In this document: positions 5,875 through 13,848 of the stretch, in pieces
Position numbering within the stretch: the stretch's first letter is position 1
Layout: every line of letters starts with the position of its first letter
Origin: Escherichia coli
GTDB lineage: Bacteria > Pseudomonadota > Gammaproteobacteria > Enterobacterales > Enterobacteriaceae
Assembly (NCBI RefSeq): GCF_016903815.1
Contig: NZ_CP069971.1
Reading direction: 5' to 3' (one strand)
DNA length: 48,644 nt
Position numbers and translations under genes: made by a program
The notes under the pieces: model-generated
What the model was told of the DNA's origin: nothing
What the model saw: the letters and a program-made list of their open reading frames with translations, nothing else
Database searches by the model: none

Positions 5875-5900
5875 AAAAAAGGCCCCCGAAGGGGCCTAAT
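5875..5900 (-). terminator. intrinsic terminator (GGCCCC-CGAA-GGGGCC, T-run on minus strand)
   Basis: Perfect GC hairpin flanked by an A6 run on the plus strand, i.e. T6 on the minus strand; lies between convergent genes. Confidence 0.65.
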
Positions 5901-5902
5901 CG

Positions 5903-6022
5903 CTACTTGCTGCTAATGTTTATCGTCACATTCAGAGCGTTATCAGTAATCTTCCAACCCTCCCCATGTGGCGTAAACAAAGCTCCAGTAACAACGATAA
6001 AAATACACATACAGTATTTTTT
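5903..6022 (-). CDS. small hydrophobic peptide (about 40 aa), function unknown
   Basis: MKKYCMCIFIVVTGALFTPHGEGWKITDNALNVTINISSK with an AGGG RBS, ending at the terminator hairpin. Confidence 0.3.
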   Translation of the reverse strand, partial: KKYCMCIFIVVTGALFTPHGEGWKITDNALNVTINISSK

Positions 6023-6423
6023 CATTGTATGGCCCTTACAGGCCGTTTCACGGCATCCCCACCGACGAAAACAACGCGAGAGCAAGCACGGCTGCTTGTG
6101 CTTGCATGTACGGCAACGGAGAATCCTCCCCTAAAGTCGGTGCCCGGGTGCGAATCGGCGGGAAGGTCCACAGGTATTTTACGATTATTTTAAGATTAGT
6201 TATAGGAAAGAAATTAAACGAAAAAACTCGTTTATTTTCACAAAATCAGTAACCTACCCACAATCTGTGAGTTTGCAGGCACAACAAGAACCACAATTTT
6301 ATGAAGCATAATAGTGGACTATTATTACCTTTTGGGTAAAATTAACTTGCTGCTTGTGCTTGCGTGGTTGTTTATACAACAACGTAATGCTGAAAGGACC
6401 GCGAATCCGATCAGCACGAAAGA

Positions 6424-6483: not shown

Positions 6484-6593
6484 TGTCTCTGTTAAAATCC
6501 CGCCGTATTGACATAAATGCGCCATTGGTGGACACTTTCCTAGCCGTAGCAAAATCTACGGTCGGGATTGGAACCCCGTAGACACAATGGCGC

Positions 6594-6616
6594 ATACCGC
6601 GTTAGCGGTTTTTTTA
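6594..6616 (+). terminator. second terminator-like hairpin in the antirepressor leader
   Basis: ACCGC-GTTA-GCGGT followed by T7. Confidence 0.45.
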
Positions 6617-6781
6617 TGCGTAAAGCACTGCTACACCCAAATTATGGTGGGGCGTGCGGGGGAGTCGTAAGACTCGCCGGTTCGTCATTGTGTCCGGTAG
6701 TTCCAACCCTGCACGTCTCACCACCCAATGATTGGAACCTGACGGTGGTGAGTATCCTTAACCTTTAAGGGAATCATCACA

Positions 6782-6973
6782 ATGACAAACCTACCCCATG
6801 ACTATTACGTCAACCTCGTAAAGATCCTTCTCAAGAAAGCCTCATACGCCGATAAATTCCGCCTGGCTGAAATAATCGAGCGCGAAGCTATGCGCATCGC
6901 CAGCAACGATAACGCTGTTTCTGTCGCAAAAATCTCCCTCGTAACCAAAGTAGTTATGGGAGGTGCAAAATGA
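6782..6973 (+). CDS. small protein translationally coupled to the antirepressor gene
   Basis: 63 aa; its stop overlaps the ATG of the next gene (ATGA overlap at 6970). Confidence 0.45.
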   Translation: MTNLPHDYYVNLVKILLKKASYADKFRLAEIIEREAMRIASNDNAVSVAKISLVTKVVMGGAK

Positions 6974-8151
6974 AAACGCTTCCGACCGTTAACACCCTAC
7001 AGCCTATCCTGCATAACCAGATCCCCGTTATCACTACTGAACTACTGGCGCAATTGTATGGAACCGAGCGCCAACGTCTGACGAACAATTTCAATAGAAA
7101 CAAGGAACGTTTTATAGAAGGTAAACACTTTTTTAGGATAGAAGGTAAAGAGTTACGAGAGTTGAAGAACAAAAACTCTTTAAGAGTTCCTGTGAGAGTA
7201 GTTAACGAACCATCTTTAAGAGGGTTACAAATTCCCCCGAAAGTTCGCTCCCTCATCCTCTGGACAGAACGCGGGGCTGCACGTCACGCCAAAATGCTTG
7301 AAACTAACCAAGCGTGGGATGTGTTCGAACGGCTGGAAGACTGCTATTTCAGCCAGAACGCGCAAACGGCCGCGACCGTAACCGTCTCGCCAAGCAATGC
7401 TCGTGAGGTTGTTGATACGCTCAACGCCAAACCAATGTATTACGTTAAGGTGTGCAATAACGAGCCACTCACAACCTCAGCCGATGTTGCCCAGGCATTC
7501 AGCACCACAAACAATTCCATCGTTATGGCCATCGATGCGTTACGCATTCCTCGCACAGCTGCGGCGCGTCATTTCTTTAAAGAGCAACGACCGTTGGAAG
7601 GAAGCGACCGCGAAATAACAATCTATCGCATGACAAAAGACGGATTTACCTTGCTCATGGAAAGTATCGACGGTCCAAGCGTGAAGGATATCAAGCTGGC
7701 CTACATTGAAGCTTTTAACGCTATCAGCAGCGTGTTAAAGGCAGAATACGAGCGAATACTATACAACCGACTGTATCAGGAAACAAAGATTATCCGAACG
7801 GCAACAGAACATCATCGGCTATTAACGGAACCAAACTACCGCAAGACACTAATCAAAGAGTTTGACAAAGCGACGGAGAAAACTAAAGCGGCACTAAATC
7901 TACCAACAATGACTAAGGATGATGTGATATCAGCCTTACTTCTTGATCTACTCAGAAACGCCAGAGCACTTATAAGCTTTGACGAAAACCTGAATCCTCA
8001 GCTCAAGCTACTACCACCGACAGGCAAAGTAGTCGACCAGGCTGATCACAACAGCATACTCAGCGTTCTGGATGCAAACCTGCCAGCCAGGACACTACAG
8101 GAACTGATAAAAATATCTGCGGATAAACTGGCCGCAGGTGCAAAACCATAA
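6970..8151 (+). CDS. antirepressor-like protein (ORF6N/KilA-type N-terminal domain)
   Basis: 393 aa; N-terminal ...NNFNRNKERFIEGKHFFRIEGKELRELK...LILWTERGAARHAKMLETNQAWDVFERLEDCYF matches the ORF6N-type antirepressor pattern as I recall it. Confidence 0.6.
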   Translation: MKTLPTVNTLQPILHNQIPVITTELLAQLYGTERQRLTNNFNRNKERFIEGKHFFRIEGKELRELKNKNSLRVPVRVVNEPSLRGLQIPPKVRSLILWTERGAARHAKMLETNQAWDVFERLEDCYFSQNAQTAATVTVSPSNAREVVDTLNAKPMYYVKVCNNEPLTTSADVAQAFSTTNNSIVMAIDALRIPRTAAARHFFKEQRPLEGSDREITIYRMTKDGFTLLMESIDGPSVKDIKLAYIEAFNAISSVLKAEYERILYNRLYQETKIIRTATEHHRLLTEPNYRKTLIKEFDKATEKTKAALNLPTMTKDDVISALLLDLLRNARALISFDENLNPQLKLLPPTGKVVDQADHNSILSVLDANLPARTLQELIKISADKLAAGAKP

Positions 8152-8155
8152 AACA

Positions 8156-8176
8156 AAGCGCCCGATTTGGGCGCTT
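8156..8176 (-). terminator. hairpin terminator between convergent genes
   Basis: AAGCGCCC-GATTT-GGGCGCTT with a T-rich flank on the minus strand. Confidence 0.5.
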
Positions 8177-8185
8177 CTTCAATTC

Positions 8186-8821
8186 TTAATATTTCGGTGT
8201 AATCAGTAGCGATACATGCCCTGATTTGTCACGAGAAACGTAATACTCGCCTCTCTTAGTCTTGAACTCAGCTTTCTGCATATCAGATTTAACAATCTGC
8301 TCTAACTGCGCAATCACGGTGTCTCTTTCACTTGACGCATCCAAGACTTCAACTGCTACGGCCATAGAAAGCAAGGAATCAGAGTTAGGCTTGGATACTC
8401 GCCATAATAACTCAGAAATCTTCCCATCCTTATCAACTCTAGCCCGACCGTTAACAGATGAGTTGATGGCAAATTCAACGGTGTTGTTACCTTGTTTAAC
8501 AGACTTAATTCTTATAGTGGAGGTGGCTTTTCCTGATGTAGCGATGCCTTCAAGGTCATCATTATATAACTTCTTAAACTTATCTACGGTCACACCATCA
8601 AAAGCAGCTCCGGTAGTAGCCGCAGTGTTGGAGTCTTCTGGGATCAAGGTCACAGCCGCAAGAGTATTAACAACTACAAAAGTTGCAATCCCGAGAAAGC
8701 CACTCACTAAAACAGCTTTGAACTTACCACCAGAAGACGAGGCACATTGTTTCCGATATGCGCCACGAACTACGAAGAAACACAAAATCAGGCTAATAAT
8801 AAACGCCACCAGCATCCCCAT
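8186..8821 (-). CDS. membrane protein with two N-terminal TM helices, function unknown
   Basis: 211 aa; MGMLVAFIISLILCFFVV and AVLVSGFLGIATFVVVNTLAAV hydrophobic segments, then a soluble domain of about 150 aa. Confidence 0.55.
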   Translation of the reverse strand: MGMLVAFIISLILCFFVVRGAYRKQCASSSGGKFKAVLVSGFLGIATFVVVNTLAAVTLIPEDSNTAATTGAAFDGVTVDKFKKLYNDDLEGIATSGKATSTIRIKSVKQGNNTVEFAINSSVNGRARVDKDGKISELLWRVSKPNSDSLLSMAVAVEVLDASSERDTVIAQLEQIVKSDMQKAEFKTKRGEYYVSRDKSGHVSLLITPKY

Positions 8822-9386
8822 AGAAATCTCCTTTTAGATATAAGGGTAAAGCAATATCGTATTAGATCTTCCTTAAGACACAACCCCCCCTCCCCCCATA
8901 CAGGGTGCCCTTTACCGGAGTTCCGGCCCCTTCTCAAAAGCATCAAAAAAAGCTCGAGATCGAGTACCGGAACTCATGCCACCAGATAGCTCCACATCGT
9001 TTCCAATGCTTCGCCGCCGTGTGCGCCCTGTGACCCACAATCATGCCATTGGTCGTCTGATATACCTTCTTCTGCTCATAGAGCACAGGCGAGTTGTCGC
9101 ACTCCTGCCTTTCTCAGACTCGACTTAGTTTAGATCGCTGTTCCTGGCTTGCGTCAGCACACTTTCCCCTTGTACGCATACCCGCGCGCCACTTCGCCCA
9201 AAAACACCGAACCCAACGAAGTAGCAAAGACAACGACGCGAGCGTGAGTCTGAAACGTGCACCAGTAAAAAAGGGGTTGCAGGCGCAAAAAGATTTGATT
9301 ATCTTTAGACGCAAGAAAGCCGCCCCAATCAAGAGGTGTCTTTTTAAATCCAGCCTACCAAGCAAGATTTAAATTTCAGACTGAAA

Positions 9387-9408
9387 ACCGCCCGGCAAGG
9401 CGGTTTTT
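9387..9408. terminator. bidirectional intrinsic terminator
   Basis: ACCGCC-CGGCAA-GGCGGT with T-runs on both strands. Confidence 0.65.
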
Positions 9409-9456
9409 GTCTTTCTGGCGCTTACATTACACCACCAGAAAACGATCCGTAAAGGA

Positions 9457-9729
9457 TCATTTGATCCCTTGTTCCAATTCTGACGACACTTTAACCTTTT
9501 CCCATACAAGGGTTTGCAGCCTTAACAGAATCGCGTCTTTATCAAGGCGTGAAAGATCCTTAACCATATCGTCAAATGACAGAACGCGAATGGCCATCTC
9601 AATGACCCTCGGCGGCTCCCCCTTCTCATATCGCTTATATGTAGCCAACGATATCCCAAATTCTTCGGCGGCTCGCTCCTGCGTCCAGTTCATCCCACGA
9701 CGCCATAATTTCAATTCATAACCCGTCAT
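9457..9729 (-). CDS. XRE-family HTH DNA-binding protein
   Basis: MTGYELKLWRRGMNWTQERAAEEFGISLATYKRYEKGE; GAGGAGG RBS before the ATG at 9729 (the track ORF starts further upstream). Confidence 0.6.
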   Translation of the reverse strand: MTGYELKLWRRGMNWTQERAAEEFGISLATYKRYEKGEPPRVIEMAIRVLSFDDMVKDLSRLDKDAILLRLQTLVWEKVKVSSELEQGIK

Positions 9730-9740
9730 AGCATCCTCCT

Positions 9741-9790
9741 CGCACAATACTAACACTCGCAAAGTGTCAAAATGACACTTTGCGTATTGT
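9741..9790. promoter_or_regulatory. long nested palindrome (GCAAAGTGTCA-TTT-TGACACTTTGC flanked by CACAATAC/GTATTGTG)
   Basis: Perfect 11-bp arms with imperfect outer arms, between the 126-aa gene stop and the HTH gene RBS. Confidence 0.6.
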
Positions 9791-9792
9791 GT

Positions 9793-10173
9793 TTACTTAA
9801 CGAGGAATAAAAATGGTTTATTGTTCGGCGGTGTAATCGGGGCTGGCTCGCTTTTGCTCATGCGATCAGTGTACCAAGCCAACTCCTTGTCAAAGTAAGC
9901 CTGATTAAAATAGGCCATGAATGTAGTTTCAAATCCATAACGACCGCTAATACGCAGCATCTGATTGCCGTTCTCTGTTTCCAGATATACCTGGGCACGT
10001 TCCTGATTCTCCTTCAGCCAGGTTAAAGCCTCATCGCATGAGGACACACGATACTCATCATCGTAGCCGTCATCGATGCGGCTTGAGGAAGAACGGCAAA
10101 TCACGCCAACAGAACCAGCCAGGATAGTTTGAATTTTAAGGAAAGCGTTTTTGCGGATTTTAATCATGCTCAT
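9793..10173 (-). CDS. hypothetical protein (126 aa), first gene downstream of cassette copy 2
   Basis: ORF with a GGAGA RBS supplied by the conserved leader; no family recognised. Confidence 0.5.
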   Translation of the reverse strand: MSMIKIRKNAFLKIQTILAGSVGVICRSSSSRIDDGYDDEYRVSSCDEALTWLKENQERAQVYLETENGNQMLRISGRYGFETTFMAYFNQAYFDKELAWYTDRMSKSEPAPITPPNNKPFLFLVK

Positions 10174-12599: not shown

Positions 12600-12745
12600 T
12601 TCACAGGCAAAGCCTGCGTAAGTTAAATAAAGAAAGTTTTAATAAAAGAAAGTGATTTTGCATTTATTTGTTTAGTGCATCTATTATAAAAAACCATTTG
12701 CATATACATATCAAAACTGTGGATAACTTTATTATCCGATGCCTG
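12600..12745. other. oriR-like region: AT-rich tract plus inverted DnaA-box pair (TGTGGATAA 12718-12726; TTATCCGAT 12732-12740)
   Basis: Downstream of the repA stop, preceded by a GC-rich multi-hairpin segment (12380-12600). Confidence 0.5.
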
Positions 12746-12867
12746 TAAAGGCGATATTTTTGCTGTGTTCAGGTTTAGAGAAAATTAATTTAGATTGTTT
12801 TTTGAACAGATATTTTATTGCGACGTAGATAATCCTCCGGTAAAACCGGATTCATCATTCAGGTGGG

Positions 12868-13848
12868 TTAATGTTGGAGTGATTTCCAGGTCTTTCTTAG
12901 CCTGTTATAACGCTGCTCAACGAGGGAGCGTAAATATGCAAGGTCAGCACCAGGATACATGCCATCAGCAAATTCCTGGCTAACCTCTCTAGTGATTTGA
13001 TGACGAAGTTCGGCCTCTCCCTTTTCCTGAACAAGACGCGCAGCTCTCTCCGCTGCTTTCTGTTTTGCCTTTATCTCTCTGGCCGTCTTCCTCTGACGCC
13101 ATACATTCTCCATCTGCTCCTGAATAACAATACGCTTATAATCAGCCTCCGTTATCGCTTTTTTAAGCCGTTCGCTATTCTTCGCATTGAAGTAATTAAG
13201 TTTCTGGCTAACCGCACGTCTCCATGCTTGTTCAGTAATACCAACTGTTTCCAGCAGTTGATCACGAATCTCGATTTTCGCTGGCCAATACTGTTTATTC
13301 ACCCGATCCCAGCGACGTTCATAATCAATAAAACCTAACTCTTTCAGTTGCGACAACGCCCTTGTACAGCGCGTTATAGACTTGTTCCCAGCTTCGGATA
13401 CGGTAGACAGGCCGCAAAAATCAGCCAACGCCTCAGCACTGGCCAGAACCCGCTTAGAAATGATGTTTACATGGTGCAAAATCGCAGCAATCACAGCATT
13501 AATCGCCCGACGACGATGCTCGTTTATCCGGCGTTTCCGCTCTGACGGTTGATTAACGTAGAACGCAACCTCACACGTAAGATCACGACCATTAATGCGC
13601 TGTAAAGCATCAGATAACACCAGCGGCAGCTTGTGCGTATGGTGCTTTGGAGGCTGGAACTCCGGCGACAAATTACAAACGTAAGCTGAACGTAGAGACG
13701 GCATTGGTCTATCCATATGTTCGCTCTTGCGTCCACGGAAAACCAACGTATAATGGGAGTTGTCGAGGCGCCCATGGATTGTTGTTGTTGGTTTTCCGTG
13801 GATGTCGCAAGAAGCCCGCAGATTTATCTGCGGGCTTTTTGTTTCCAT
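12868..13848 (-). CDS. repA: replication initiator RepA (IncFII RepA-like); may include a leader ORF, with an alternative internal start near 13716
   Basis: ...CGLSTVSEAGNKSITRCTRALSQLKELGFIDYERR... resembles the conserved core of IncFII RepA1 (recalled, not searched). Confidence 0.65.
   Translation of the reverse strand: METKSPQINLRASCDIHGKPTTTIHGRLDNSHYTLVFRGRKSEHMDRPMPSLRSAYVCNLSPEFQPPKHHTHKLPLVLSDALQRINGRDLTCEVAFYVNQPSERKRRINEHRRRAINAVIAAILHHVNIISKRVLASAEALADFCGLSTVSEAGNKSITRCTRALSQLKELGFIDYERRWDRVNKQYWPAKIEIRDQLLETVGITEQAWRRAVSQKLNYFNAKNSERLKKAITEADYKRIVIQEQMENVWRQRKTAREIKAKQKAAERAARLVQEKGEAELRHQITREVSQEFADGMYPGADLAYLRSLVEQRYNRLRKTWKSLQH
13762..13840 (+). ncRNA. CopA-like antisense RNA opposite the repA 5' region (putative)
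   Basis: Plus-strand promoter TTGCGT (13727-13732), 16-nt spacer, TATAAT (13749-13754); terminator AGCCCGCAGAT..ATCTGCGGGCT + T-run at 13813-13840, antisense to the first repA codons and RBS. Confidence 0.5.

What the first reader, a model, noticed from the sequence alone, without database searches (positions are those of the whole stretch)
8186..8821. Stand-alone membrane protein gene with its own terminator
The 211-aa protein has two N-terminal TM helices and a soluble domain, is transcribed convergently to the antirepressor gene, and is followed by a long non-coding region. It could be a superinfection-exclusion or abortive-infection type membrane protein.
Basis: inference. Interest (0 to 1): 0.45.

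Follow-up and report, generated by a model that had tools for sequence, protein, structure and literature searches.

The report
Phage-plasmid accessory periplasm-facing membrane protein
This is a real, optional gene of an E. coli phage-plasmid that encodes an inner-membrane-anchored protein of unknown function facing the periplasm; blocking entry of rival phages is a plausible but untested role, and the "non-coding" DNA beside it is the most conserved stretch of the region and probably encodes a large structured RNA.

Summary
The ORF is real. It lies at 8186-8821 on the minus strand, encodes 211 aa, has a good Shine-Dalgarno sequence and its own intrinsic terminator, and evolves under purifying selection (dN/dS 0.14-0.21).

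It encodes two N-terminal membrane helices joined by a +5 cytoplasmic loop, so the ~150-aa C-terminal domain is predicted to be periplasmic. That domain models confidently (pLDDT 88.7). It resembles only exported proteins of unknown function (E. coli YiiQ/DUF1454 and lipoproteins).

There is no match to any known exclusion, defence, lysis or virion family.

The family is tiny and confined to one group of ~48-kb enterobacterial phage-plasmids. It always sits in the same slot beside a P1-like isrK-C4-icd-ant immunity module.

The gene is optional:
- present in 14 of 71 E. coli genomes carrying this plasmid family;
- replaced by a 62-aa ORF in relatives inspected;
- absent in two lineages and frameshifted in one.

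Superinfection exclusion fits but is untested.

It lies upstream of the gene, not after it. It is 86-91% identical across five genera, while flanking genes are 62-80%. It shows minus-strand RNA covariation.

The parts
8186..8821 (-). CDS of the 211-aa membrane protein (stop codon 8186-8188, ATG 8819-8821)
   Evidence: ORF list; phrog_23465 full-length match, E 1.3e-144; homologues; dN/dS 0.14-0.21.
8828..8833 (-). Shine-Dalgarno AAGGAG, 6 nt upstream of the ATG
   Evidence: Read from the sequence.
8768..8818 (-). TM helix 1 (residues 2-18); the N terminus is predicted periplasmic
   Evidence: Kyte-Doolittle 19-residue windows above 1.9 and no charged residues; modelled as a helix by AlphaFold.
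8717..8767 (-). Cytoplasmic loop (residues 19-35, RGAYRKQCASSSGGKFK; 5 K/R, 0 D/E) holding the YRKQ motif shared by most family members
   Evidence: Charge count; family alignment. The inside location is inferred from the positive-inside rule.
8642..8716 (-). TM helix 2 (residues 36-60)
   Evidence: Hydropathy; AlphaFold helix.
8189..8641 (-). Predicted periplasmic alpha/beta domain (residues 61-211), YiiQ/DUF1454-like fold
8155..8177 (-). Intrinsic terminator hairpin (GAAGCGCCCAAATCGGGCGCTTT followed by GTTTT) in the 34-bp spacer shared with the convergent ant gene
   Evidence: Terminator scan; sequence.
8133..8870 (.). Swappable cassette. It holds the last codons of ant, the terminator, the 211-aa gene and its 50-nt leader. 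In ATCC 25922-type plasmids and Yersinia phages vB_YpM_39/41/44 a 244-bp segment with a 62-aa ORF takes its place
   Evidence: Three-way alignment; blastn breakpoints; gap length is 740 or 244 bp across loci.
6970..8151 (+). Convergent antirepressor gene (393 aa), last gene of a P1-like immI module (isrK 6543-6615, C4 RNA 6640-6728, 63-aa ORF 6782-6973)
   Evidence: PHROG anti-repressor hits; Rfam isrK 67.7 bits and C4 77.8 bits, both above gathering score.
8873..9456 (-). Conserved non-coding element immediately 5' of the gene; a candidate ~400-530-nt structured RNA on the minus strand.
- G6AG7 tract at 8884-8898.
- GAAA-capped hairpin at 8994-9009.
- Covarying helix at 9188-9225.
- Hairpin at 9378-9412, which on the plus strand reads as an intrinsic terminator
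   Evidence: - Conservation: 88-91% nt identity against 62-80% for flanking genes; 86-91% over the core.
- Non-coding: variable positions show no codon periodicity, 33/33/34.
- Not previously described: no Rfam family and unannotated in all 61 matching plasmids.
- Strand: RNAalifold gives -198.8 kcal/mol on the minus strand and -140.5 on the plus strand.
- Covariation counts.
9457..9729 (-). 90-aa XRE-type HTH gene upstream in the same orientation. The longest ORF extends to 9762. It is preceded by a perfect palindrome at 9758-9784
   Evidence: ORF list; PHROG and Pfam HTH hits; PGAP annotation in relatives; the palindrome is unique in the window.

Best explanation
The gene is an optional cargo gene of a ~48-kb enterobacterial phage-plasmid: a myovirus with IncFII-type RepA, ParA, HigBA and a P1-like C4/icd/ant immunity module.

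Its product inserts into the inner membrane as a helical hairpin. The N terminus is outside, a short basic loop is inside, and a ~150-aa YiiQ/DUF1454-like alpha/beta domain sits in the periplasm.

The most likely role is superinfection exclusion. In this model the lysogen makes the protein. The conserved membrane hairpin holds it at the inner membrane. The fast-evolving periplasmic domain binds either a component of an incoming phage's DNA-delivery machinery or the host envelope protein that machinery uses. DNA entry of related phages is thereby blocked.

Shown here: the gene is real; its predicted topology and fold; its optional distribution; its fixed position beside the immunity module; purifying selection with rapid divergence.

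Inferred only: expression in the lysogen, the target, and exclusion itself.
For: - Real and constrained: dN/dS 0.14-0.21.
- Topology: +5 loop between the two membrane helices and an acidic stretch after TM2; helices and a folded domain in AlphaFold models.
- Fold: matches only exported or periplasmic proteins (YiiQ/DUF1454 and lipoproteins). E. coli YiiQ starts with a typical signal-peptide-like N terminus. This agrees with a periplasmic location.
- Optional cassette: present in 14 of 71 E. coli genomes that carry this plasmid family and in 7 of 61 PLSDB plasmids at 80% or more query coverage. The alternative allele carries a 62-aa ORF. The slot is empty in S. Weltevreden and C. amalonaticus. 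The gene is frameshifted in S. salamae.
- Fixed position in diverged relatives: homologues of 26-56% identity (Yokenella, Citrobacter, unnamed metagenome-derived contigs) and a Klebsiella aerogenes homologue whose identity was not measured all lie between the HTH gene and the convergent ant or parA genes.
- Divergence: it and Ant diverge fastest, at 44-56% and 41-54% aa against 66-95% for neighbours, in the three relatives where the proteins align over most of their length. Within the protein the membrane hairpin is about 65% identical to the Citrobacter homologue and the soluble domain about 39% (read by eye). This is the pattern expected when the exposed domain is in an arms race.
- Not lysis or virion: the lysis cassette (GH108 endolysin and two holins) and the structural genes are elsewhere.
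- Precedent: P1 places its exclusion operon simABC directly beside c4/immI.
Against: - No sequence or profile similarity to any characterised exclusion protein or defence system: P1 SimC, PADLOC, PHROG functional families.
- The fold relatives have no known function, so they do not point to exclusion.
- No promoter was identified, so expression in the lysogen is assumed rather than shown.
- GC content (43.1%) is close to the element's average (44.3%), so the gene lacks the usual compositional mark of a recently acquired gene.
- Most family members lack the gene, so any protection it gives is dispensable.
Confidence: 0.35

Rival explanations
1. It is an envelope-protection or lysogenic-conversion factor unrelated to phage entry. 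One version is an orphan immunity protein against toxins that act in the periplasm (colicins, contact-dependent or type VI effectors). Another is a modulator of a host envelope process that benefits the lysogen.
For: - Periplasm-facing domain on an inner-membrane anchor.
- The closest fold relatives are chromosomal periplasmic proteins and lipoproteins, including the E. coli K-12 chromosomal gene yiiQ.
- Optional distribution typical of cargo genes.
Against: - No toxin or effector gene lies next to it.
- The family occurs only on this phage-plasmid lineage and always beside the phage immunity module.
Confidence: 0.2
2. It is an abortive-infection or toxic membrane effector that depolarises or permeabilises the inner membrane when a superinfecting phage is sensed.
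For: - Two-helix membrane proteins are common effectors of defence systems (established knowledge).
- It lies next to toxin-antitoxin (HigBA) and immunity genes.
Against: - No PADLOC model matches it or its homologues.
- No partner sensor gene travels with it; the cassette holds this gene alone.
- Two thirds of the protein is a folded periplasmic domain, which a simple pore-former does not need.
Confidence: 0.08
3. Its function is tied to the conserved RNA element just upstream. It could be a cargo whose expression that RNA controls, or a membrane factor that acts with an RNA-primed replication origin or regulator encoded there.
For: - In every lineage that has the element and a filled slot, the slot gene sits in the same orientation at or just beyond the element's 3' end. 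It starts about 50 nt after the element's G tract in the window, Yokenella and Citrobacter, and about 115 nt after the element in K. aerogenes.
- No separate consensus promoter was found.
Against: The two parts occur independently.
- The element occurs without the gene in the E. coli 62-aa allele, S. Weltevreden and C. amalonaticus.
- The gene occurs without the element in L006, L018 and L019.
Confidence: 0.1
4. It is a lysis-timing or virion-associated protein (antiholin-, holin- or spanin-like) made late in the lytic cycle.
For: T4 holin T and antiholin RI also combine a membrane anchor with a sizeable periplasmic domain (established knowledge).
Against: - The lysis cassette is about 12 kb away in a close relative.
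- The gene is missing from most relatives, including the plaque-forming Yersinia phages vB_YpM_39/41/44.
Confidence: 0.05

Closest known systems
E. coli YiiQ / DUF1454 (PF07305) and related exported lipoproteins of unknown function
   Same: - The whole soluble domain superposes on AlphaFold models of DUF1454/YiiQ proteins and of many annotated lipoproteins (TM 0.69-0.82, E ~1e-8 to 1e-7).
- A profile alignment to E. coli YiiQ is colinear over 130 columns and shares local motifs, such as FD..s..F...(Y/F)N and the terminal strand ending in P.
- Both are predicted to be extracytoplasmic.
   Different: - Pfam does not detect DUF1454 in it, and identity is about 15%.
- YiiQ has an N-terminal signal-peptide-like sequence, whereas this protein is held by a two-helix membrane hairpin.
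- YiiQ is a chromosomal E. coli K-12 gene, whereas this family is confined to one phage-plasmid lineage.
- No YiiQ function was found in the searched literature.
Phage P1 superimmunity locus simABC (SimC)
   Same: An envelope-directed, non-essential gene of a plasmid prophage, placed directly beside the C4/icd/ant immunity module (for P1; here).
   Different: - No sequence or profile similarity to SimC.
- P1 sim lies upstream of c4 and is divergent from it, whereas this gene lies downstream of ant and is convergent with it.
- SimC is a processed periplasmic protein (established knowledge), not a membrane hairpin.
Inner-membrane superinfection-exclusion proteins of other phages (T4 Imm and Sp, P22 SieA, HK97 gp15)
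   Same: Small phage-encoded inner-membrane proteins that block DNA entry from the periplasmic side (established knowledge). They share the general layout of a membrane anchor plus a periplasm-exposed part.
   Different: - No PHROG family annotated as superinfection exclusion matches it.
- It is larger and has a distinct, well-folded 150-aa periplasmic domain.
- Function is untested.
ColE1-type RNA II / RNA I replication control, compared only with the upstream conserved element and not with the protein
   Same: - A ~500-nt conserved non-coding stretch whose substitutions fit a folded RNA on one strand.
- Three hairpins at its 5' end. The first of these reads on the opposite strand as an intrinsic terminator with a T5 tract, as expected for a short antisense RNA.
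- G-rich tracts near the 3' end, where conservation stops.
- Weak Rfam RNAI hits over the hairpin.
   Different: - The Rfam RNAI scores are 18-20 bits against a gathering score of 47.
- blastn found no similarity to any plasmid outside this family.
- No promoters were detected.
- Origin activity is entirely untested.

Membership tests
Known superinfection-exclusion proteins (P1 SimC; PHROG families annotated as exclusion) | Detectable sequence or profile homology to a characterised member | tested here: not met
   BLASTP against SimC E 1.5 and hhalign probability 0.1%. The only PHROG hit is phrog_23465, of unknown function.
Known superinfection-exclusion proteins | Located in the inner membrane or periplasm | tested here: met
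   By prediction only: two hydrophobic helices, a +5 loop and an acidic stretch after TM2; AlphaFold models.
Known superinfection-exclusion proteins | Expressed from the prophage and blocks DNA entry of superinfecting phage | not testable with these tools
   Needs transcript data and phage-challenge assays.
DUF1454 / YiiQ (PF07305) | Match to the Pfam model above threshold | tested here: not met
   The Pfam scan lists only two chance-level hits, DUF475 and DUF6505, with E above 0.1.
DUF1454 / YiiQ (PF07305) | Same fold over the whole domain | tested here: met
   Foldseek against AFDB50: DUF1454/YiiQ proteins at E 1.7e-8 to 6.2e-8, TM 0.69-0.71 over about 153-164 columns.
DUF1454 / YiiQ (PF07305) | Profile-level sequence relationship to E. 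coli YiiQ | tested here: inconclusive
   hhalign is colinear over 130 columns, with E 0.025 for the single comparison, probability 1.9% and 15% identity.
Anti-phage defence or abortive-infection systems in PADLOC | Match to any PADLOC protein model | tested here: not met
   No family at E up to 1 for the protein or three homologues.
Phage lysis proteins (holin, antiholin, spanin) | Homology to a lysis family, or position in the lysis cassette | tested here: not met
   No lysis PHROG hit. In the close relative NZ_CP020518.1 the endolysin and holins are at 41-1248 and this gene is at 12731-13366.
Prophage 'moron' (independently transcribed accessory gene) | Presence/absence polymorphism between otherwise near-identical genomes | tested here: met
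   740-bp and 244-bp alleles sit between flanks 95-100% identical. The gene is present in 14 of 71 E. coli genomes.
Prophage 'moron' | Own terminator | tested here: met
   Minus-strand terminator at 8177-8155.
Prophage 'moron' | Own promoter | tested here: inconclusive
   The scan found no consensus promoter in 8000-9900. A weak TTGTGT-16-TACGAT candidate at the cassette junction was read by eye.
Prophage 'moron' | Base composition different from the surrounding genome | tested here: not met
   GC is 43.1% against 44.3% for the window; GC3 is 41% against 48-52% in neighbouring genes, a small difference.
ColE1-type RNA I / RNA II origin (upstream element only) | Match to Rfam RNAI (RF00106) at gathering score | tested here: not met
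   18.1-20.3 bits against a gathering score of 47, E 0.39-1.2.
ColE1-type RNA I / RNA II origin (upstream element only) | Long primer transcript processed by RNase H, and Pol I-dependent initiation | not testable with these tools
   Needs origin mapping and genetics.

The most novel reading that the evidence does not exclude
The 'non-coding region' beside the gene is a previously undescribed large structured RNA, about 400-530 nt on the minus strand. It is conserved at about 90% across Escherichia, Salmonella, Citrobacter, Klebsiella and Yokenella phage-plasmids.

In the most novel reading it acts as an RNA-primed, R-loop-type origin for lytic replication. Three features suggest this:
- its position downstream of the c4-icd-ant module is where P1 has kilA-repL with oriL;
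- its 3' end carries GGGGGGAGGGGGGG, a G6AG7-type tract like mitochondrial CSBII (resemblance recalled from memory, not tested);
- its 5' end looks like a ColE1 RNA I/RNA II overlap.

Alternatively it could be a new riboregulator. In either case the slot at its 3' end would be a cargo-expression site, and the 211-aa protein carried there would found a new superinfection-exclusion family.
Probability: 0.15. Interest if true: 0.75.

Novelty: new member of a known kind. Interest (0 to 1): 0.42.

Why it matters
- If the protein does exclude phages, it would add a family with a new fold type (YiiQ-like domain on a membrane hairpin) to the short list of understood exclusion mechanisms. It could also give a first functional hint for the fold family of YiiQ, a periplasmic E. 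coli protein whose function is unknown.
- Nature supplies the controls. Near-identical phage-plasmids, and the plaque-forming phages vB_YpM_39/41/44, differ by this one cassette.
- The upstream RNA-like element may matter more. It is the best-conserved stretch of the whole immunity and maintenance region, it is unannotated in every record examined, and it matches no Rfam family.
- Phage-plasmids of this type are common in clinical E. coli. Knowing what controls their replication, immunity and cargo slots is therefore of practical interest.

Tried and rejected
- Sequence searches that found nothing informative: Pfam, NCBIfam, PADLOC and PDB sequences by profile. tblastn against 50,697 phage records found no match at all.
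- Weak phmmer matches (E 1e-7 to 1e-3) to 850-2700-aa proteins with repeated matched stretches. The one inspected, P0019, carries tandem repeats. I judged these matches to be repeat-summed chance similarity to the DKDGKIS..LW motif, and the fold searches did not support them.
- P1 SimC as a homologue: rejected.
- A hidden protein gene in the non-coding stretch: rejected. There are frame-breaking 1-nt indels between lineages and no codon periodicity of substitutions (33/33/34).
- The non-coding element as a plus-strand RNA: disfavoured. The covariation term is unfavourable (+3.06), and many pairs break as A-C on that strand. Column-shuffle z is -2.65 against -6.0 for the minus strand.
- Single-sequence folding is not significant on either strand (z -1.84 and -0.99). 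The RNA case therefore rests on conservation and covariation, not on folding energy.
- The HTH operator palindrome half-site does not recur in the element or elsewhere in the window.
- Attempts to widen the element's diversity. One exact 20-mer scan of genome contigs found nothing. Viral-contig scans returned only lineages already in hand. Two further lineages came from the HTH-protein homologue search and its encoding contigs.
- Literature: no paper mentions vB_YpM_39/41/44. pSLy3 turned out to belong to a different phage-plasmid group, the SSU5 supergroup. No YiiQ function was found.
- The 62-aa alternative slot ORF has no informative family.

Full report
**What the window is**

The 48.6-kb window is essentially a whole phage-plasmid.
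- It is 97-98% identical over most of its first 24 kb to Yersinia phages vB_YpM_39/41/44. The region studied matches many ~48-kb non-mobilizable E. coli plasmids, such as the 48,488-bp plasmid of ATCC 25922.
- A close relative carries myovirus head, tail-sheath and baseplate genes, a GH108 endolysin with two holins, IncFII-type RepA, ParA and a RelE/ParE-type toxin-antitoxin pair.
- Rfam finds, above gathering score, isrK (6543-6615), the C4 antisense RNA (6640-6728), a ryfA-like RNA (5875-6171, minus strand) and a tRNA.
- C4 is followed by a 63-aa ORF and a 393-aa antirepressor at 6970-8151. This is the layout of the P1 immI module.

**The observation**

The ORF at 8186-8821 (minus strand, 211 aa) is there as described.
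- AAGGAG lies 6 nt before the ATG.
- A minus-strand intrinsic terminator at 8177-8155 follows the stop codon.
- The gene converges on ant across a 34-bp spacer.
- It is a genuine gene. dN/dS against alleles 94-96% identical at nucleotide level is 0.14-0.21. Full-length homologues exist down to 26% identity. PGAP calls it on this strand in relatives.

One detail is wrong. Because the gene is on the minus strand, the 635-bp non-coding stretch (8822-9456) lies upstream of it, not after it.

'Stand-alone' is not established either. The consensus scan finds no sigma-70 promoter between 8000 and 9900. By eye I see only a weak TTGTGT-16-TACGAT candidate at the junction with the upstream element.

**The protein**

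Hydropathy shows two hydrophobic segments, residues 2-18 and 36-60.
- The loop between them has five K/R and no D/E.
- The twenty residues after TM2 have four D/E and no K/R.
- By the positive-inside rule, the N terminus and the ~150-aa C-terminal domain face the periplasm.

AlphaFold, using the small family alignment, models two long helices and a folded domain (pLDDT 77.5). The soluble domain alone models well (pLDDT 88.7, pTM 0.86). Its order of elements is helix, four strands, two helices, three strands.

Fold and family searches gave the following.
- Foldseek against AFDB50 matches the whole domain to many uncharacterised exported proteins (TM 0.69-0.82, E ~1e-8 to 1e-7). These include DUF1454/YiiQ family proteins and proteins annotated as lipoproteins.
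- A profile alignment to E. coli YiiQ is colinear over 130 columns but statistically marginal (E 0.025, 15% identity).
- Pfam does not see DUF1454.
- YiiQ begins with a signal-peptide-like sequence. No function for it was found in the searched literature.
- PADLOC, NCBIfam and PDB sequences give no match. The only PHROG hit is phrog_23465, of unknown function. P1 SimC is unrelated.

**Distribution and context**

The family is very small.
- An exhaustive phmmer scan of 1.84 billion representatives finds six full-length or near-full-length relatives. It also finds a few hits to long proteins with repeated matched stretches, which I judge to be chance.
- A profile search adds nothing.
- Full-length members found in NCBI assemblies lie on contigs of about 28-49 kb from E. 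coli, E. albertii, Yokenella and Citrobacter.
- A further 218-aa homologue was found in a Klebsiella aerogenes relative.

In every locus recovered, the gene sits in the same place. It lies downstream of a ~90-aa XRE-type HTH gene and converges on ant or, in more distant relatives, on the parA operon.

Within the E. coli clade the gene is one allele of a swappable cassette (about 8133-8870).
- The 740-bp version carries this gene.
- A 244-bp version carries an unrelated 62-aa ORF.
- Fourteen of 71 E. coli complete genomes with this plasmid family have the 211-aa allele.
- The slot is empty in S. Weltevreden and C. amalonaticus relatives.
- The gene is frameshifted in S. salamae.

The gene diverges fast. 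In the three relatives where the proteins align over most of their length, it and Ant are the fastest-diverging syntenic genes, at 44-56% and 41-54% aa identity. The HTH, orf126, HigA, HigB, the 63-aa ORF and the ParG-like protein stay at 66-95%. Within the protein, the membrane hairpin with its YRKQ loop motif is better conserved than the periplasmic domain.

**Most likely function**

The protein is an optional gene that sits beside the immunity module. It is anchored in the inner membrane, exposes a fast-evolving periplasmic domain, and has no link to the lysis or structural modules. This is the profile of a lysogen-expressed envelope factor.

I commit to superinfection exclusion at the DNA-entry step as the single most likely role, with confidence about 0.35. 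P1 offers a positional precedent, since its simABC exclusion operon abuts c4.

Everything about timing of expression, target and phenotype is inferred. The rivals are:
- an immunity or envelope-protection factor unrelated to phages (0.2);
- a function tied to the upstream RNA (0.1);
- an abortive-infection effector (0.08);
- a lysis or virion role (0.05).

**The upstream 'non-coding' region**

This was the surprise. Window 8873-9456 is 88-91% identical to the corresponding DNA of the Yokenella, Citrobacter and two Salmonella relatives. The flanking genes are only 62-80% identical at nucleotide level. Adding the K. aerogenes and C. amalonaticus copies, identity to the window over the core is 86-90%, against 99% for the E. 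coli ATCC 25922 copy.
- It is unannotated in all 61 matching PLSDB plasmids.
- It matches no Rfam family. The best hits are Phe_leader and RNAI at 18-25 bits, driven by one hairpin.
- It is not coding. There are 1-nt indels between lineages. The 100 variable positions fall 33/33/34 over the three codon phases.

The substitution pattern favours a folded RNA on the minus strand, the same direction as the HTH gene and the 211-aa gene.
- RNAalifold gives -198.8 kcal/mol with a favourable covariation term on the minus strand. It gives -140.5 with an unfavourable term on the plus strand.
- Column-shuffle z-scores are -6.0 and -2.65.
- Nearly all one-sided changes stay paired as G-U on the minus strand but become A-C on the plus strand.

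Two hairpins carry multiple compensatory changes:
- 9188-9225 has four pairs with changes on both sides;
- 8994-9009 is a 6-bp stem capped by GAAA that occurs in three different sequence versions.

There are caveats.
- Only about seven lineages are available.
- Only 7 of 188 predicted pairs show changes on both sides.
- Single-sequence folding energy is not significant (z -1.84).
- The long-range helices are therefore unproven.

Other features:
- The element ends in GGGGGGAGGGGGGG (8884-8898), and conservation stops about 10 nt further on.
- Its 5' part has three hairpins. The first (9378-9412) reads on the plus strand as a strong terminator with an invariant T5 tract.
- This recalls the ColE1 RNA I/RNA II arrangement and R-loop primer sites. 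The position matches that of P1 kilA-repL and oriL, downstream of the c4-icd-ant module.
- That idea is an analogy, not a finding.

The element and the gene occur independently of each other. They are therefore separate modules that happen to abut.

**Verdict**

The exclusion reading survives the tests that could be run but remains untested. The gene itself is a modestly interesting new accessory family. The neighbouring conserved RNA-like element is the more unusual object and deserves its own follow-up.

Noticed in passing
window 8873-9456 (minus strand): About 584 bp of unannotated non-coding DNA that is more conserved than any neighbouring gene: 86-91% identity to the window in relatives from other genera against 62-80% for flanks. 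It shows minus-strand RNA covariation (helix 9188-9225; GAAA hairpin 8994-9009) and matches no Rfam family. It is a candidate new large structured RNA or RNA-primed origin.
   Followed up: partly
window 8884-8898: The tract GGGGGGAGGGGGGG on the minus strand (CCCCCCCTCCCCCC on the plus strand) is invariant in all eight aligned copies. It marks the point where conservation ends. From memory it is a G6AG7-type tract like the mitochondrial CSBII primer/R-loop site.
   Followed up: no
window 9378-9412: A hairpin (CCGCC-loop-GGCGG) reads on the plus strand as a strong terminator with an invariant T5 tract. On the minus strand it has only a weak U run of 3-4. It could end a ~100-nt plus-strand antisense RNA spanning roughly 9312-9412. 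It accounts for the weak Rfam RNAI and Phe_leader hits.
   Followed up: partly
window 5875-6171 (minus strand): Full-length Rfam ryfA match (142 bits, gathering score 80). An internal short ORF reads MKKYCMCIFIVVTGALF... From memory, RyfA encodes the small toxin TimP in Salmonella, so this could be a plasmid-borne type I toxin-antitoxin locus.
   Followed up: no
window 6543-6973: isrK (67.7 bits) and C4 antisense RNA (77.8 bits) are followed by a 63-aa ORF and ant. This is a P1-type immI module on a 48-kb myovirus phage-plasmid unrelated in size to P1.
   Followed up: partly
window 9758-9784: A perfect 27-bp palindrome, CGCAAAGTGTCAAAATGACACTTTGCG, lies between orf126 and the HTH gene. It is probably an operator or attenuator. 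Its half-site occurs nowhere else in the window beyond chance.
   Followed up: yes
L002 3263-3451 (ATCC 25922 plasmid); same slot as window 8133-8870: The alternative cassette allele encodes a 62-aa protein (MMRRKASLLQAIGS...) with no informative family. The slot therefore behaves as a small cargo hotspot with at least three states: 211-aa gene, 62-aa ORF, or empty.
   Followed up: partly
L008 1811-2667 (S. enterica subsp. salamae plasmid CP053324.1): The homologue of the 211-aa gene is split by a frameshift into two overlapping ORFs, so it is a pseudogene in this lineage.
   Followed up: yes
L020 11554-12696 (E. coli strain 222 plasmid); L003 2107-3252: In some relatives that carry the 211-aa gene, the antirepressor is annotated as broken into an ORF6N fragment and a Rha fragment. 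The ant region is also more diverged between alleles (91.7%) than the rest of the plasmid (about 99%).
   Followed up: no
L018 690-1480 and L006 1-175: More distant relatives carry a different conserved sequence upstream of their copy of the gene (shared motif CACCGGGCTGCAAATCCCG.GCGTAGATTTTGCTACGCG.CGTAAATGTA) in place of the element seen here.
   Followed up: no
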